Part shown: piece by piece, positions 7,997-55,520 of the stretch
How the letters are laid out: the number at the start of each line of letters is the position of its first letter
How positions within the stretch are numbered: the first letter of the stretch is position 1
Assembly (NCBI GenBank): GCA_043811105.1
Contig: JBDRNK010000015.1
Location: forward strand, 1 to 57,753
Direction of reading: 5' to 3'
From: Candidatus Uhrbacteria bacterium
GTDB taxonomy: Bacteria > Patescibacteriota > Patescibacteriia > UBA9934 > CAZDDW01
DNA length: 57,753 nucleotides
The notes under the pieces: generated by a model
The model's input: the letters and a program-made list of their open reading frames with translations, nothing else
Database searches by the model: none
Told to the model about the DNA's origin: nothing
Made by a program: the position numbers and the translations under genes

Positions 7997-8755
7997 ATGA
8001 GGTTGTTCTTTTTGTTCACAAGCATGATTCTGGTTGTGGGGCTGGTTGTTCCAGTTCTGGCACAGGATGATGAAGATGAAAAGCGTCGAGATCACCTGGT
8101 GATCAGGATCGGTCAGGGTGGAGAGGTCGAACAGCTCGACGTCATCCTTCCTACAGCCACACCGCGACAGGTTCAGCGGACAATGGCCCAGCTGTTGGCC
8201 TACATGGCGTGTATGGACAACGGCGGTGAAGCCGGGTTCTGTTCAGCTCAGGCTGACTCGACCCTGACTCGCTCGCATCTTGAAATTACCACTGGTAGTC
8301 CAGTCTACGGAGGACCTTATCCAGCCGTGCCAGGTTACAGTCCAGGCTATGTTCCGGATACGAGTATCAATAATCCATTCAATATCCAACATGGATACTC
8401 GCGAACCGAGGAAGAGCTGTATCAGCAGTATGAATACAATCAGGCCCAACGTGAGGAAATGGAACGAGTTCGTGCTCGTGCAGTCGAAGATGCTCAGGTT
8501 GACATTCTGCGTGAGGTCGTCAGCGGTCAGGCCGTGCTCGAAGAGCGCGTTCAGGCCACAGATCAGCGGTTGGATCAAGCCGATCAACGACTTGAAGCGG
8601 TTGCCGGTCAAATTCACGAAACCACAGTCGGGTTAAGTGAAACTTTGCGAGAATTGGATGAAACCAGGGATGTTACTGAGGATGTGATCGAGGGTCAGCA
8701 GACCCAGATTGACCTGCTTCAGGAAGAACAGCAAAAGAAAAAGAAGAGGGAGTAG
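7997..8755 (+). CDS. secreted coiled-coil protein (GC-rich cassette class)
   Basis: Signal peptide 'MRLFFLFTSMILVVGLVVPVLAQ', an acidic/Gln-rich heptad C-terminal half, GGAGGAGAGAG directly before the ATG, and its own terminator. Confidence 0.65.
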   Translation: MRLFFLFTSMILVVGLVVPVLAQDDEDEKRRDHLVIRIGQGGEVEQLDVILPTATPRQVQRTMAQLLAYMACMDNGGEAGFCSAQADSTLTRSHLEITTGSPVYGGPYPAVPGYSPGYVPDTSINNPFNIQHGYSRTEEELYQQYEYNQAQREEMERVRARAVEDAQVDILREVVSGQAVLEERVQATDQRLDQADQRLEAVAGQIHETTVGLSETLRELDETRDVTEDVIEGQQTQIDLLQEEQQKKKKRE

Positions 8756-8759
8756 TCAA

Positions 8760-8796
8760 AGTACCTTGCCATGCGGGTAAGGTACTCTTTTTTTTG
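8760..8796 (+). terminator. intrinsic terminator
   Basis: AGTACCTT (8760-8767) pairs with AAGGTACT (8779-8786), followed by a T-run. Confidence 0.7.
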
Positions 8797-8836
8797 TAAA
8801 TTATGCTTAAAAAGTAGATTTTCCACTACCACTGGG

Positions 8837-8870
8837 TTGACAGAAAGAAATTACCAACCTTTAAGGTTGG
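8837..8870 (+). promoter_or_regulatory. promoter-like site overlapped by a 17-bp palindrome
   Basis: TTGACA (8837-8842), N17, TTTAAG (8860-8865). The perfect palindrome CCAACCTTTAAGGTTGG (8854-8870) covers the -10 region. Confidence 0.45.
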
Positions 8871-9557
8871 GAAAAGATAGGACTCGGTTCTCAGGGTGTC
8901 CGGGAAACTGCATGCGGCCTTTTCTTGTCTGGCCGAACCTGCATCCCCGGAATGGTCCCTGATTACCGTTGCCCGGCATACCGACGCTCCACTAGTTGGA
9001 CGCGACTGTAGCCTGGCGGGTCGGTACCGAGTTCTGGTTAAGTAGTGAGCAGCCTCAGAAAGCTCACCATGTGTCGTATACACGCACTTCTTTGTGCTCG
9101 GCCGGACAGGAGCGAATACCTGACCGGTGCGAGTTCTAGGGGGCGTGGCATCCCCTGGAAGCTCACGAGGAGTGTGATCCATGTTTGTTAGCAGCCAGGG
9201 TACGTACTCTGGATTCGCCTGCTGATGAATACTTAACCGTTCTGGAGTTGGATGGAGCCGGTGTATTTCGCCCAGCATAGCCGCGGCTTATAAAAGCCGG
9301 CTTGCGGGTTTCACCGCAGGCCTCCACGGCGTCGCGTTGCGACTGCACCGGCTCTGTCCACTCCTTCCTTTGATCAGGGATTTCCCCTGATCTCAACCCC
9401 GCTGCGAAAGGACGTAACTCCGCAGCATAACTCCTCGTGATCACACTGGACCCGAATCACGAGCACATCTCAGGGTCCCGTTGGGTTCACCTAGTCATCG
9501 CGACCTGGATTCCCAACGTACCACACCTCCCCGGCCACGTAGTCGGGGAGGTTTTTT
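8871..9557 (+). ncRNA. candidate large structured ncRNA, class unknown (5' end approximate)
   Basis: G+C is visibly far above the flanks. Only Arg/Pro/Thr-rich shadow ORFs are present. There are many GC-rich hairpins and two long-range complements (details in findings). It ends in a canonical intrinsic terminator on the + strand only. Confidence 0.55.
9526..9557 (+). terminator. intrinsic terminator closing the 8871-9557 unit
   Basis: CCTCCCCG (9526-9533) pairs with CGGGGAGG (9544-9551), followed by TTTTTT (9552-9557). There is no T-run on the opposite strand. Confidence 0.8.
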
Positions 9558-9562
9558 ATTTA

Positions 9563-9631
9563 GTTATGAGTTTTGAGTTATGAGTTATGAGTTTTTTGAA
9601 GACTCACAACTCAAAACTCCAAACTCAAAAC
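9563..9631. repeat. imperfect 30-bp inverted repeat built from GAGTT/AACTC words
   Basis: Left arm GTTATGAGTTTTGAGTTATGAGTTATGAGT (9563-9592); right arm ACTCACAACTCAAAACTCCAAACTCAAAAC (9602-9631). Four mismatches. Confidence 0.7.
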
Positions 9632-9714
9632 TTTTCCACAACCGGTGTCTGACACCAGTTGGGGATAACTTGTATAACAAGCCAGTATCTTCTCTTTTTG
9701 GTATAATGAAACAG

Positions 9715-12153: not shown

Positions 12154-12170
12154 CCAACCTTAAAGGTTGG
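12154..12170. promoter_or_regulatory. second copy of the CCAACCTT(T/A)AAGGTTGG palindrome
   Basis: CCAACCTTAAAGGTTGG, in the divergent intergenic region between 12086 and 12419. Confidence 0.4.
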
Positions 12171-24513: not shown

Positions 24514-24532
24514 CCCAACCTTTAACGTTGGG
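24514..24532. promoter_or_regulatory. third copy of the CCAACC..GGTTGG palindrome
   Basis: CCCAACCTTTAACGTTGGG (one arm mismatch), followed by ATAGTTTTT. Confidence 0.35.
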
Positions 24533-41422: not shown

Positions 41423-42145
41423 TTACCAGCGCAGGCGGGTGGCTCGCTCCTGCCTCTGGCGTTCCTGATGCAGACGCGCATTCATTGATCGGTGGTAAGC
41501 CATGGCTAACTTGGACACGTCGCGTGGCTGACCATCTTCCTCAGAAGCGATCCTTTCCCAAGTCATGTTCTGGTTCCAGTGCACCTGGCGGTCCTTGCCA
41601 GTGCCCTGGAAATGAACCTGGGATTCGACAAAGGTTTCGCCATCGACGTAGCGAAGTCGAATTACCGCAGTACCATGTTCGTCCTTGTACAAGGACATTC
41701 CATCGCAGATGATTGCGTCCGGACGACCCTCTGGATTGTCCCAGACAAAGGCAGCCGTTGCTACCCAACTCTGGTTATACAGTGATTCGAACTGTGTATT
41801 CACAGGCACAGACTCGTCCTTACGCATGTCCACAAGAACATCTTCGTCGCCGAGAACATTGGTGAAACCATAGGTGACGATCGGTTTGTCGCGATCTCGA
41901 CCACCCATGGCTAGTCCTGACCCGGTGTAGTGCAGGGTGTCCAGATCACGAGCTAGTTCGCTCAGGTCGAGCAGAACCTTGAACAGGCCAATCACCTGCA
42001 TGCCTGAGACGTCCTCGTCCTTACAAGACACAGTTTCCCGAGGCTTGTCTTCACGCCGCCGCATTTCCTCTAGGATCCCGGCAGCAAAGGTGACCACCTG
42101 TAGAATCACCGGTCGTCGAACCAGCCTTGCTTCGGCCATTGTCAT
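41423..42145 (-). CDS. hypothetical protein (GC-rich cassette class)
   Basis: I moved the start to ATG 42145, preceded by AAGGAGAGAAGAC. TTGACA-N17-TATAGT sits upstream on the minus strand. Terminator ACACCCCGGA..TCCGGGGTGT lies downstream. Confidence 0.6.
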   Translation of the reverse strand: MTMAEARLVRRPVILQVVTFAAGILEEMRRREDKPRETVSCKDEDVSGMQVIGLFKVLLDLSELARDLDTLHYTGSGLAMGGRDRDKPIVTYGFTNVLGDEDVLVDMRKDESVPVNTQFESLYNQSWVATAAFVWDNPEGRPDAIICDGMSLYKDEHGTAVIRLRYVDGETFVESQVHFQGTGKDRQVHWNQNMTWERIASEEDGQPRDVSKLAMAYHRSMNARLHQERQRQERATRLRW

Positions 42146-42412
42146 GTCTTCTCTCCTTTTCACCCTGTATTCAGGGTATTGTTTTTGTTCATTGAAAGAT
42201 CGTACGACCGATAACTATAGCACGAAATTAAGCTCCTGTCAACCCGGCAACAGCCCTACGGGCAACTGCCGGGTCAACCCTAAGACGCTTAATTTAGCCA
42301 AGAATGAGTTAAATAAGCAAAAGAAATTGATCCACAAGCAGGCATTGACAAAGCTTAGAATCCATGGTTATCTGATAATAGACTCCCAATTAAAAAGGGG
42401 AGTTTTGTGTTT

Positions 42413-53061: not shown

Positions 53062-53373
53062 ATGAGTAGAACAGTTATCACTCTTCCGGATCGAGAAGAG
53101 ATGCTACAGCGTCTCATGCAAGTCAATGACAGGAATCATGTACAGCAGAAGCTCTATCCGATTCTCCTCAACCACGCAGGACAGGAAAAAGTGGCGCAAG
53201 GTATCCCCGTGATGCTTGCTCTGGCCATCAATGACTACACAACGGGTATGCCCGCAGTCGTAGCCGGAATGGTTTGGGATTACGTACCCGCCTGGATCGA
53301 TGCTCTGGTTGACGACCAGGACGTCGCTGCGGAAGCCAAGGCCTTCTTCGAGGCTGCCTTCGCTACTCAGTAG
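53062..53373 (+). CDS. small soluble hypothetical protein (cassette 4)
   Basis: I moved the start to ATG 53062, after GGAGGATTACAAC. Terminator at 53382-53437. Confidence 0.6.
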   Translation: MSRTVITLPDREEMLQRLMQVNDRNHVQQKLYPILLNHAGQEKVAQGIPVMLALAINDYTTGMPAVVAGMVWDYVPAWIDALVDDQDVAAEAKAFFEAAFATQ

Positions 53374-53616
53374 TTTCTCAACCGCCCCACCCATTCGGCC
53401 TTCGAAGCCGCACCTTGGGTAGAGGGCGGCTTTTTTATTTATAGACTAAAAACTAAAAATGGGGTCAGGTCTTGAGTTCGAACCTCAATAGACTAGATAG
53501 TACTGTGGTGCAGGTCTTTGGTTGACTAGTTGCCTCGATCGGACAATCGAACCCAGGGAGATTCTCATCCTCCCCGGGATCATAAAAACCGTCTAGAAAA
53601 ATCTAGCCGGTTTTTA

Positions 53617-53784
53617 TGGTGACCCCAGGGGGAATATAGTCGTGCCGACCATATTGAACTCCTCCGCTCGGAAGACGTTGAATGAATTCAGGTCTTCTCT
53701 CGCTCAGTCGTGCAATCGAACCCAGGGAGTTCTCATCCTCCCTAGGATCACAAAAACCGCCTGGAAGAATCCAGTCGGCTTTTG
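53617..53784. repeat. tRNA-3'-end-like repeat module, copy 1
   Basis: It starts TGGTGACCCCAGGGGGAAT. This is followed by a ~85-nt block almost identical to 55297-55383 (GTCGTGCCGACCATATTGAA...CGTTGAATGAATTCA..GTCTTCTCTCGCTCAGTCG..AATCGAAC). It ends in a bidirectional hairpin. Confidence 0.6.
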
Positions 53785-53993
53785 TGGTGACCTACTGTAT
53801 TGAGAATTGGAACACCATTATCCAACATCTCAAGCAATGGTCAGAAACCTTGCCGCATATTTTGGAAGAAAAAACTTTTGCAATAAATCAACTATAGCAA
53901 GCTCTTTTTGATGGAGATGATTTACAATTCTCTTCATTGGACATCTACTTGTTTTCCAAGGATATATCCCTATTTCTCCGTAACTATTCCAAT

Positions 53994-55445: not shown

Positions 55446-55520
55446 TGGTGACCTCACGGAGAATCGAACTCCGGTTCCAAGGATGAGAACCTTGTGTCCT
55501 AACCACTAGACGATGAGGCC
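55446..55520 (-). tRNA. tRNA-Glu (anticodon CUC), CCA encoded
   Basis: Minus strand: GGCCTCATCGTCTAGTGGTTAGGACACAAGGTTCTCATCCTTGGAACCGGAGTTCGATTCTCCGTGAGGTCACCA. I folded the cloverleaf by hand: 7-bp acceptor, anticodon loop TTCTCAT, T-loop TTCGATT. Confidence 0.9.

What the first reader, a model, noticed from the sequence alone, without database searches (positions are those of the whole stretch)
8837..9557. ~690-nt GC-rich, ORF-free, hairpin-dense transcription unit: candidate large structured ncRNA of unknown class
**Boundaries.** The stretch lies between a promoter-like site (TTGACA 8837-8842, N17, TTTAAG) and a one-sided intrinsic terminator (CCTCCCCG/CGGGGAGG + T6, 9526-9557).

**Composition.** G+C is visibly far higher than in the flanks. 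The only ORFs are Arg/Pro/Thr-rich shadows on the opposite strand.

**Helices traced by hand:**
- GTGAGC 9045-9050 / GCTCAC 9062-9067
- CTCGGCCGGACAGG 9097-9110 / CCTGACCGGTGCGAG 9119-9133
- GATCAGGG 9372-9379 / CCCTGATC 9385-9392
- GCTGCG 9401-9406 / CGCAGC 9421-9426
- CGTTGGG 9479-9485 / CCCAACG 9512-9518
- Long-range: ACTCGGT 8882-8888 / ACCGAGT 9026-9032
- Long-range: TCACGAGGAGT 9163-9173 / ACTCCTCGTGA 9430-9440

**Classes I could not match.** On either strand I found no RNase P CR-I box (GAGGAAAGUCC), no tmRNA tag ORF or T-arm, no SRP domain IV, and no group II domain V.

**Inference.** A discrete, highly structured ~0.7-kb RNA in a reduced genome would fall in the size class of OLE/GOLLD/ROOL-type ornate RNAs.
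Basis: partly seen in the sequence, partly recalled or inferred. Interest (0 to 1): 0.8.

Follow-up and report, generated by a model that had tools for sequence, protein, structure and literature searches.

The report
New large structured RNA gene, Uhrbacteria
The flagged stretch is very probably a stand-alone gene for a roughly 690-base folded RNA that matches no described RNA family. Its fold is kept by paired compensating mutations in the one relative I could find, but its function is unknown.

Summary
Window 8872-9557 (+) is 57% G+C in a 43% G+C contig of a Candidatus Uhrbacteria MAG.

**Not a known family, not a gene remnant**
- No Rfam 15 family matches, even at E<=10.
- No protein resembles its shadow ORFs.
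- It is not in the phage or plasmid collections.

**One diverged orthologue supports a folded RNA**
- The orthologue is ENA contig L005, about 75% identical, in the same gene order.
- It keeps the -35 box, the terminator and a core of helices.
- Of 125 alignable pairs, 20 changed on both sides and none is broken.
- Indels ignore the reading frame and substitutions show no codon periodicity, unlike the neighbouring gene.

- Six of the seven hand-traced helices are kept. The 11-bp long-range helix 9163-9173/9430-9440 is not; a covarying pseudoknot (9434-9478) replaces it.
- The window's -10 hexamer is weak and overlaps a 17-bp palindrome.

**Wider context**
Other Uhrbacteria carry one to three unalignable, equally G+C-rich, strongly folding RNA-like units in the same slot, between a DUF7670 gene and glycerate kinase.

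**Verdict**
This is a genuine candidate for a new large structured ncRNA family. Its function is unknown, and the evidence rests on only two sequences.

The parts
8760..8794 (+). Intrinsic terminator of the upstream 252-aa gene. It marks the left boundary: the RNA unit is not a 3' UTR of that gene.
   Evidence: 11-bp stem plus T-run. It is 100% identical in L005.
8837..8842 (+). -35 hexamer TTGACA, inside the conserved block CACTGGGTTGACA.
   Evidence: The same block precedes the orthologous RNA in L005 and the RNA-like units in L033 and L034.
8854..8870 (+). 17-bp palindrome CCAACCTTTAAGGTTGG covering the -10 position (TTTAAG 8860-8865, a weak hexamer). L005 has the extended consensus TGTGGTATAGT here. 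This is a candidate operator, or a promoter-weakening replacement.
   Evidence: 3 copies in the window, all intergenic; 0.22 expected by chance. One search reports no promoter here.
8872..9557 (+). Predicted RNA of about 686 nt. The 5' end is inferred from the promoter geometry; the 3' end is the terminator T-run.
   Evidence: The + strand consensus fold is -157.3 kcal/mol against -135.7 for the - strand, and it contains 12 G-U pairs.
8880..9034 (+). P1 (8880-8887 with 9027-9034, GGACUCGG/CCGAGUUC) enclosing variable domain 1. The interior is 139 nt here and 81 nt in L005, and the two cannot be aligned.
Evidence: 8 of 8 pairs identical in both.
9036..9238 (+). Domain 2, closed by P2 (9036-9043 with 9231-9238). 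Inner helices: 9045-9050/9062-9067, 9084-9091/9168-9175, 9103-9110/9119-9126, 9188-9194/9219-9225 and 9195-9201/9206-9212. Conserved junction: GUGUGAUCCAUGUUUG 9172-9187.
   Evidence: 52 pairs, 16 changed on both sides, against 8.0+-2.0 in shuffles (0 of 500) and 0-3 with slid partners. Column-shuffle z = -8.9.
9112..9218 (+). Candidate tertiary loop-to-internal-loop pairing, 9112-9117 GCGAAU with 9213-9218 AUUCGC. In L005 it is GCGAGC/GUUCGU.
   Evidence: 6 pairs kept; 1 changed on both sides, 2 on one side. Weak evidence.
9244..9367 (+). P3 long hairpin. The base (9244-9261 with 9348-9367) is conserved. The 81-nt tip (9264-9344) is 13 nt in L005, a net 68-nt difference, so this is a variable expansion.
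   Evidence: 15 base pairs kept; 3 G-U/Watson-Crick switches.
9372..9392 (+). P4 hairpin GAUCAGGG-AUUUC-CCCUGAUC, nearly invariant, loop included.
9401..9426 (+). P5 hairpin (GCUGCG.../...CGCAGC).
9434..9478 (+). H-type pseudoknot: P6 (9434-9439 with 9458-9463) interleaved with P7 (9448-9453 with 9473-9478).
Evidence: P6 has 3 of 6 pairs changed on both sides; P7 has 1 of 6; none is broken.
9479..9518 (+). P8 (CGUUGGG/CCCAACG) with an internal hairpin. The stem and the flanking GGAUUCCCAACGUAC are invariant.
9525..9558 (+). Intrinsic terminator: 11-bp G+C-rich stem, 6-nt loop, T6.
   Evidence: It is conserved in L005 with one compensatory pair at the top of the stem.
9560..9672 (+). Conserved downstream elements, probably not part of the RNA. 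They are an A+T-rich inverted repeat of GAGTTAT/GAGTTTT heptamers (9560-9632) and a small covarying hairpin GGTGTCTGACACC (9644-9656).

Best explanation
Window 8872-9557 (+) is an independent gene for a structured non-coding RNA of about 686 nt that belongs to no described family.

**Transcription.** It would start from a sigma-70-type promoter (-35 at 8837-8842) and stop at an intrinsic terminator (9525-9558).

**Fold.** The RNA folds into a conserved core:
- P1;
- a P2-closed multi-helix domain;
- the base of P3;
- P4 and P5;
- a P6/P7 pseudoknot;
- P8.

Two freely varying expansion segments sit on this core: domain 1 and the P3 tip.

**How it most likely works.** It most likely acts in trans as a folded molecule, as a scaffold for a ribonucleoprotein or an RNA assembly. 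It is unlikely to act by coding, by antisense pairing, or as a leader of a neighbouring gene.

**Shown**
- Absence of coding signal.
- Boundaries conserved in an orthologue.
- Strand-specific, compensated secondary structure.
- Invariant junction sequences of 17-22 nt.

**Inferred**
- That it is transcribed at all.
- The position of the 5' end.
- Action in trans.
- Any protein partner. The adjacent membrane protein DUF7670 is only a positional suggestion.

The confidence figure applies to 'genuine structured ncRNA gene of a new family'. The scaffold mechanism by itself deserves about 0.3.
For: **No known family, at any threshold**
- No Rfam match in the window copy or in L005.

**An orthologue in conserved gene order**
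- L005 has the order DUF7670, 257-aa gene, RNA, then glycerate kinase further downstream.
- It keeps the -35 box, has a consensus extended -10 (TGTGGTATAGT), and keeps the terminator.

**Compensated structure**
- Anchored alignment: 125 alignable pairs, of which 93 are unchanged, 12 changed on one side, 20 on both sides, and 0 are broken.
- Domain 2: 16 both-sided changes, against 8.0+-2.0 in shuffles (0 of 500) and 0-3 when partners are slid.
- The consensus fold of domain 2 has z = -8.9 against column shuffles; the 3' domain has z = -7.0.
- The P6/P7 pseudoknot covaries.

**Strand**
- The + strand folds better in the consensus (-157.3 against -135.7 kcal/mol).
- The same is true of all six units examined, by 16-40 kcal/mol.

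**Not coding**
- 11 of 13 indels are not multiples of 3.
- Mismatches fall 49/49/58 by phase. The adjacent gene shows 30/33/81, and all its gaps are multiples of 3.
- There is no conserved ORF.
- The shadow ORFs have no homologues among 5.8 billion proteins or 1.84 billion cluster representatives.

**Expansion segments on a fixed core**
- These are the 68-nt difference at the P3 tip and unalignable domain 1 inside an invariant P1.
Against: - Only two distinct sequences exist, so R-scape-type statistics are impossible. Both-sided changes in the 3' domain are few (4; 29 of 500 shuffles reach that number).
- There are no expression data.
- The window copy has a poor -10 hexamer, replaced by a palindrome, so this copy may be weakly transcribed or repressed.
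- Conservation decays fast. At 61-67% identity of the neighbouring glycerate kinase, the units in the same slot (L033, L034) are no longer detectable by blastn, nhmmer or two covariance models. That is unusual for an RNA with an essential conserved function.
- A G+C-rich coding gene in the same window also reaches z = -4.2.
- The 5' third (domain 1) gives no comparative support.
Confidence: 0.72

Rival explanations
1. It is one cassette of a fast-evolving, island-borne family of accessory RNAs. The slot between DUF7670 and glycerate kinase would be a variable G+C-rich island whose RNA genes duplicate, recombine and are replaced. Their role would lie in conflict or in episymbiotic interaction (phage, host or competitor) rather than in housekeeping. 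This differs from the best explanation in function and evolutionary mode, not in the claim that it is a structured RNA.
For: - The same slot holds one unit in L034 and three tandem units in L033. Each has the same promoter type and its own terminator, 54-61% G+C, and fold z between -8 and -10.6.
- The L033 units are mosaic: C = the 5' half of B plus the 3' half of A, about 78% identical. About 98 pairs per comparison are kept and none is broken; z = -10.6 and -9.2.
- The types cannot be aligned with one another.
- The island also carries G+C-rich secreted-protein or lipoprotein genes that differ between genomes.
Against: - No mobility gene, repeat boundary or integrase lies next to the slot.
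- There are no matches in phage, plasmid or viral-contig collections.
- No defence-system protein is nearby.
- Failure to align could simply be rapid divergence of one orthologous gene.
Confidence: 0.2
2. It is a divergent member of a known RNA class (RNase P RNA, tmRNA, SRP, 6S, OLE, ROOL, GOLLD, HEARO/omega RNA, group I or II intron) that the models miss in this lineage.
For: Candidate-phyla bacteria often carry divergent versions of universal RNAs (general knowledge). The size is in the OLE/ROOL/GOLLD range.
Against: - No hit from any of these models at E<=10 with permissive filters on the 1-kb region, nor on L005, L033 or L034.
- ARAGORN finds no tmRNA.
- There is no CR-I box.
- Three tandem copies in L033, and unalignability between close relatives, are incompatible with a universal housekeeping RNA.
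- No IscB, TnpB or reverse-transcriptase gene is adjacent.
Confidence: 0.03
3. It is a cis-acting element: a long leader or riboswitch of the downstream glycerate kinase gene, a 3' UTR of the upstream gene, or an antisense regulator.
For: It lies between two + strand genes and is co-oriented with them.
Against: - It is bracketed by two strong intrinsic terminators (8760-8794 and 9525-9558).
- The downstream gene has its own TGGTATAAT promoter at about 9698-9706.
- In L005 a 63-aa ORF and a bestrophin-like gene separate the RNA from glycerate kinase.
- No gene is encoded opposite it.
Confidence: 0.04
4. It is a decayed protein-coding gene or non-functional foreign G+C-rich DNA whose hairpins are incidental.
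For: - The G+C content differs from the genome's, and there are long shadow ORFs on the - strand.
- In more distant relatives (L007, L012) a 207-aa gene follows the homologue of the upstream gene.
- The window copy has a weak -10 hexamer.
Against: - tblastn of that 207-aa protein against the region finds nothing.
- No protein homologues exist for either shadow ORF.
- Substitutions show no codon periodicity, and indels break the frame in both copies.
- 20 compensated pairs with none broken, together with invariant blocks of 17-22 nt, are not expected of neutral DNA at about 75% identity.
Confidence: 0.03

Closest known systems
OLE RNA (Rfam RF01071; accession from memory)
   Same: - About 600-700 nt, with many helices and highly conserved junction sequences.
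- A stand-alone gene.
- It lies next to a gene for a small multi-pass membrane protein. For OLE that protein is OapA, which tethers the RNA to the membrane (PMC3413148, PMC12265935).
   Different: - No covariance-model match.
- The neighbouring protein is DUF7670, not OapA.
- The host is a candidate-phyla bacterium, not an extremophilic or anaerobic Firmicute.
- Sequence conservation is far shallower than in OLE.
ROOL and GOLLD RNAs (RF03087, RF01998; accessions from memory)
   Same: - Large ornate RNAs of unknown function, found by their structure.
- Variable peripheral elements on a conserved core.
- They are known to build RNA-only homo-oligomeric cages (PMC12286853), which shows one way an RNA of this size can work.
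   Different: - No model match.
- The context is not prophage or tRNA-associated. The only tRNA in the window is 46 kb away, and there are no matches in viral contigs.
RNase P RNA / tmRNA (universal structured RNAs with expansion segments)
   Same: The architecture is the same: an invariant core of helices and junctions, with lineage-specific insertions at helix tips.
   Different: - No model match and no CR-I box.
- No tag ORF or tRNA-like end.
- Multi-copy and unalignable between related genomes.
HEARO / omega RNAs of IscB-TnpB elements
   Same: Structured RNAs of several hundred nt that occur in several copies per genome.
   Different: - No IscB or TnpB ORF is adjacent, and there are no transposon ends.
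- No model match.

Membership tests
OLE RNA | Match to the OLE covariance model (conserved core sequence and structure) | tested here: not met
   cmscan of Rfam 15 at the gathering threshold and at E<=10 on 8700-9700 gives no OLE hit. The same holds for L005.
OLE RNA | Adjacent oapA gene (OLE-associated membrane protein) | tested here: not met
   The neighbours are DUF7670 (PF24709), a 252-aa protein with no Pfam family, and DUF4147/MOFRL glycerate kinase. DUF7670 looks like a small membrane protein from its hydrophobic sequence but belongs to a different family. That Pfam has an OapA model to hit is my assumption, not something I checked.
ROOL / GOLLD | Match to the family covariance model | tested here: not met
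   no hit.
ROOL / GOLLD | Typical prophage or tRNA-adjacent context | tested here: not met
   The single tRNA is at 55446-55520. There are no relatives in phage or viral collections.
ROOL / GOLLD / OLE | Homo-oligomeric RNA assembly | not testable with these tools
   Requires cryo-EM or native gels.
Bacterial RNase P RNA | Model match; CR-I (GAGGAAAGUCC) and CR-V motifs | tested here: not met
   No model match. No CR-I within 2 mismatches in 8800-9600. CR-V was not searched separately.
tmRNA | tRNA-like domain plus tag reading frame | tested here: not met
   ARAGORN finds only tRNA-Glu. Rfam gives no hit.
Group I / group II introns, HEARO, raiA, SRP, 6S | Model match | tested here: not met
   the only sub-threshold hits are to the A+T-rich palindrome at 9555-9645 (miRNA-precursor models, far below their gathering scores).
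Structured ncRNA gene in general (not a family) | Secondary structure maintained by compensatory substitution in homologues | tested here: met
   20 both-sided changes, 0 broken pairs, controls exceeded. The limit is that there are only two sequences.
Structured ncRNA gene in general (not a family) | Discrete transcript | not testable with these tools
   No expression data. The promoter and terminator are conserved in position.

The most novel reading that the evidence does not exclude
Uhrbacteria keep a dedicated genomic slot, between the DUF7670 membrane-protein gene and glycerate kinase, for a previously unrecognised class of ornate RNAs.

- The RNAs are large (0.5-0.7 kb), strongly expressed and G+C-rich.
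- They evolve so fast that lineages 30-40% apart in neighbouring-protein sequence have mutually unalignable versions.
- They occur in one to three tandem, recombining copies.

The window RNA would be one type of this class. It could work as a membrane-associated ribonucleoprotein or as a self-assembling RNA particle, under diversifying selection.
Probability: 0.2. Interest if true: 0.85.

Novelty: categorically new. Interest (0 to 1): 0.68.

Why it matters
- **Rarity.** Large structured bacterial RNAs of unknown function are rare, and each has opened new biology. OLE forms a membrane ribonucleoprotein; ROOL and GOLLD form RNA-only cages.
- **Host lineage.** My literature searches found no such RNA described from candidate-phyla (Patescibacteria) genomes. 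These genomes are small, so about 0.7 kb of non-coding DNA maintained by compensatory evolution implies a real cost-benefit.
- **The slot.** Related genomes carry different, sometimes tandem and mosaic, units of the same character at the same place. If this holds up, it would be an unusual mode of RNA-gene evolution.
- **Scope of the novelty claim.** It is at the level of RNA family. Nothing here shows a new kind of mechanism.

Tried and rejected
**Protein and decayed-gene tests**
- Search with the 150-aa shadow ORF returned only the ORF itself.
- phmmer of the 93-aa shadow ORF against 1.84 billion representatives gave only two weak hits (E = 1e-5 and 8e-5, 30-38% identity), one to a 2242-aa and one to a 451-aa protein.
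- The 207-aa gene that follows the upstream-gene homologue in L007 and L012 has no tblastn match here.

**Searches for more homologues**
- blastn against phages and plasmids: none.
- Genome contigs through glycerate kinase: the nearest is a CPR2 genome at 47% identity, with no RNA.
- Three viral-contig pattern scans and one protein scan: no true homologue.
Besides copies identical to the window (L004) or to L005 (L031), they gave only L005 plus the non-homologous slot units of L033 and L034. One relevant JGI contig had no DNA available.

**Homology between the window type and the L033/L034 units**
- blastn, nhmmer, shared 9-mers and two covariance models all found nothing beyond the promoter.

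**Other copies in the window**
- None.
- Two other G+C-rich stretches with the same promoter type (41.4-42.2 kb on the - strand, 53.0-53.4 kb on the + strand) are protein genes with a ribosome-binding site and ATG.

**Other checks**
- Defence-system and NCBIfam scans of the neighbours gave nothing informative.
- Literature searches found no description of this RNA or of DUF7670.
- The MAFFT alignment of the 5' third was wrong and had to be re-anchored on ATAGGACTCGG. Domain 1 stays unalignable.
Full report
**1. What is in the sequence**

Every coordinate in the finding checks out.
- The stretch 8872-9557 is 57.3% G+C, against 42.7% for the window and 37-40% for the immediate flanks.
- The upstream protein gene (7997-8755) is itself 51.9% G+C, so composition alone does not define the element.
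- The + strand has no open stretch longer than 54 codons. The - strand carries two shadow ORFs of 150 and 93 aa.
- The consensus scan finds the terminator at 9525-9558 and a second one at 8760-8794, which ends the upstream gene.
- The scan does not report the promoter. The -35 hexamer is perfect, but TTTAAG lacks the two most important -10 positions.
- The region folds far better than dinucleotide shuffles: z = -7.0 on the + strand and -8.9 on the - strand. Coding controls of equal length give -4.2 and -1.8. All these values rest on 20 shuffles.

**2. Source and context**

The window is a 57,753-bp contig of a Candidatus Uhrbacteria MAG. The local gene order is:
- a 1118-aa beta-helix protein;
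- DUF7670, a 114-aa protein that looks membrane-embedded from its hydrophobic sequence;
- a 252-aa protein with a hydrophobic N-terminus and a charged, repeat-rich C-terminus, in no Pfam family;
- the element;
- DUF4147/MOFRL glycerate 2-kinase.

**3. Known families**

- Rfam 15 at gathering thresholds finds only a tRNA-Glu 46 kb away.
- At E<=10 with permissive filters on 8700-9700, nothing falls inside 8871-9438. The few weak hits on its edges score far below their gathering thresholds. The strongest sub-threshold hits are miRNA-precursor models on an A+T-rich palindrome downstream.
- There is no CR-I box and no tmRNA.
- blastn finds nothing in the phage or plasmid collections.

**4. Not a gene remnant**

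- The 150-aa shadow ORF matches only itself among 5.8 billion proteins.
- The 93-aa shadow ORF has no credible relative among 1.84 billion cluster representatives.
- In more distant relatives of the upstream gene (L007, L012) a 207-aa gene occupies the following position, but tblastn of it against the window finds nothing.
- Compared with the orthologue described below, 11 of 13 indels are not multiples of three, and mismatches fall 49/49/58 over the three phases.
- The adjacent coding gene gives 30/33/81, and all its gaps are multiples of three.
- No ORF is conserved in any frame.

**5. The orthologue**

Homologues of the upstream protein led to ENA contig L005 (L031 is identical to it). L005 has DUF7670, a 257-aa homologue (77% identical), a gene-free gap, a 63-aa ORF, a bestrophin-like gene, and then glycerate kinase. 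The gap aligns with the finding. What is kept:
- the upstream terminator (100% identical);
- the block CACTGGGTTGACA;
- invariant blocks of 11 to 22 nt, including ATAGGACTCGG, CCGAGTTC, GGTTAAGTAGTG, AGTGTGATCCATGTTTG, TCTGGAGTTGGATGGAGCCGGT, GATCAGGGATTTCCCCTG, TCCCGTTGGGTT and GGATTCCCAACGTAC;
- the terminator.

Between the blocks the sequences differ heavily.
- L005 has a consensus extended -10 (TGTGGTATAGT) and about 75 extra 5' nucleotides forming small hairpins.
- In the window copy, that segment is replaced by the palindrome CCAACCTTTAAGGTTGG.

**6. Structure**

After re-anchoring the alignment, RNAalifold gives a core of:
- P1 (8880-8887/9027-9034);
- a domain closed by P2 (9036-9043/9231-9238) with five inner helices;
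- the base of the long hairpin P3;
- P4, P5 and P8;
- the terminator.

*Pair counts.*
- Of 125 alignable pairs, 93 are unchanged, 12 changed on one side to or from G-U, 20 changed on both sides, and none is broken.
- In domain 2, 16 of 52 pairs changed on both sides. Shuffles of the 3' partners give 8.0+-2.0 (0 of 500 reach 16), and sliding the partners by 1-3 columns gives 0-3.
- Column shuffling followed by re-prediction gives at most 14 such pairs and an energy z of -8.9.
- The 3' domain is more conserved, so it offers fewer changes (4). Three of them sit in one 6-bp helix, P6 (9434-9439/9458-9463).
- P6 interleaves with P7 (9448-9453/9473-9478; one compensated pair) to form an H-type pseudoknot.
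- A loop-to-internal-loop contact, 9112-9117/9213-9218, is possible.

*Variable segments.* Two segments vary freely:
- the interior of P1, 139 nt here against 81 nt in L005, which cannot be aligned and gives no comparative support;
- the tip of P3, 81 nt here and 13 nt in L005.

*Strand.* The consensus fold is -157.3 kcal/mol on the + strand and -135.7 on the - strand. There are 11-12 G-U pairs in each sequence, which would be C-A mismatches on the other strand.

- 8882/9026;
- 9045/9062, with two compensated pairs read directly from the alignment;
- the inner part of 9097/9119, with three compensated pairs;
- 9372/9385;
- 9401/9421;
- 9479/9512.

The 11-bp long-range helix 9163-9173/9430-9440 fails at 7 of 11 positions in L005. 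Its two strands are instead used by 9084-9091/9168-9175 and by P6.

**7. The same slot in other Uhrbacteria**

Closer glycerate-kinase homologues gave two informative loci.
- In L034 (61% identity), DUF7670 is followed by a 624-nt gap holding one unit with a consensus promoter and its own terminator. The folded unit is 474 nt, 54% G+C, z = -10.6.
- In L033 (67% identity), three tandem units lie between DUF7670 and the bestrophin-like gene. Each has a GGTTGACAAAA...TGTGGTAT(A/G)(G/A)T promoter and a terminator, and they are 58-61% G+C. Units A and C, the two that were folded with shuffle controls, give z = -8.2 and -8.7.
- The L033 units are mosaic: C shares its 5' half with B and its 3' half with A, at about 78% identity. 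In both comparisons about 98 predicted pairs are kept with none broken, and the consensus energy is 9-11 sd below column shuffles.
- None matches Rfam.
- A JGI contig whose DNA could not be retrieved shows a 1073-nt gap at the same place.
- The window type and the L033 and L034 types share nothing detectable beyond the promoter. This holds for blastn, nhmmer, 9-mer sharing, and covariance models of domain 2 and of the 3' domain.
- A CPR2 genome has neither DUF7670 nor a gap before its glycerate kinase.
- The promoter type is the general strong promoter of these organisms, since protein genes use it too. It is therefore not by itself evidence of homology.

**8. Interpretation**

The comparative evidence supports a strand-specific structured RNA gene with a conserved core and expansion segments, belonging to no described family.

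How it works is inference.
- It has no coding capacity, no gene opposite it, and terminators on both sides. It also has long invariant junction sequences.
- These features point to an RNA that acts through its fold, most simply as a scaffold of a ribonucleoprotein or an RNA assembly.
- The closest analogues in size and ornateness are OLE, ROOL and GOLLD. Membership in each was tested and failed.
- The recurrent neighbour DUF7670 recalls the OLE-OapA pairing, but that is only a positional analogy.
- The rapid loss of alignability between related genomes, the tandem copies and the mosaicism argue against a housekeeping role. They keep open the rival that these are accessory, fast-evolving cassettes of a variable island.

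**9. Weaknesses**

- There are only two sequences of the window type.
- There are no expression data.
- This copy has a degenerate -10 hexamer.
- The 5' third has no comparative support.

**10. Verdict**

I rate it as a credible new family of large structured RNA, with function unknown, and of moderate to high interest.

Noticed in passing
window 8854-8870, 12154-12170, 24515-24531: The 17-bp palindrome CCAACCTTTAAGGTTGG (at most 1 mismatch) occurs three times, always intergenic; 0.22 are expected by chance. At 8854 it sits exactly where the orthologue has its -10 box. It is a candidate operator of an unknown regulator, or a small repeated hairpin.
   Followed up: partly
window 9560-9672; L005 2765-2876: Directly after the RNA terminator lies an A+T-rich inverted repeat with arms of about 35 bp, built of GAGTTAT/GAGTTTT heptamers. 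A small hairpin follows that covaries between the two genomes (GGTGTCTGACACC against GGGGTCTGACCCC). The whole stretch is about 79% conserved. It could be a second or bidirectional terminator, or a protein-binding array.
   Followed up: partly
L033 4880-7080; L034 7465-7965: Other Uhrbacteria carry one (L034) or three tandem, mosaic (L033) G+C-rich, ORF-poor, strongly folding units in the same slot between DUF7670 and glycerate kinase. Each has its own promoter and terminator. None can be aligned with the window RNA. The 193-aa gene called at L033 5627-6208 (-) lies on unit B and is probably spurious.
   Followed up: partly
window about 53530-53625 and about 53705-53795: Two direct repeats of about 85 nt (caatcgaacccagggag.ttctcatcctcc...ggatca.aaaaaccg...tggtgacc), each containing a hairpin followed by a T-run, in a gene-poor stretch.
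   Followed up: no
window 41423-42163 (-), 53063-53375 (+), 7997-8755 (+): Several protein genes are much richer in G+C (52-60%) than the genome (43%). At least the first two are driven by strong TTGACA-N17-TGnTATAnT promoters. The 252-aa protein has a paralogue (64% identical) on another contig of the same MAG. Its more distant homologues sit next to arrays of T4SS-pilin genes.
   Followed up: partly
L033 3881-4769 (-): Between DUF7670 and the RNA units, L033 carries two G+C-rich small genes with ribosome-binding sites. The upstream one has a lipoprotein-type signal peptide and the downstream one a hydrophobic N-terminus. They are absent from the window, so the slot is a variable island in protein content as well.
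   Followed up: no
L004 (Logan SRR27458548 contig, 1065 nt) = window 8527-9591: A short public contig covers just the end of the upstream gene plus the whole RNA, and stops 34 nt after the terminator. Whether that run is a metatranscriptome could not be checked.
   Followed up: no
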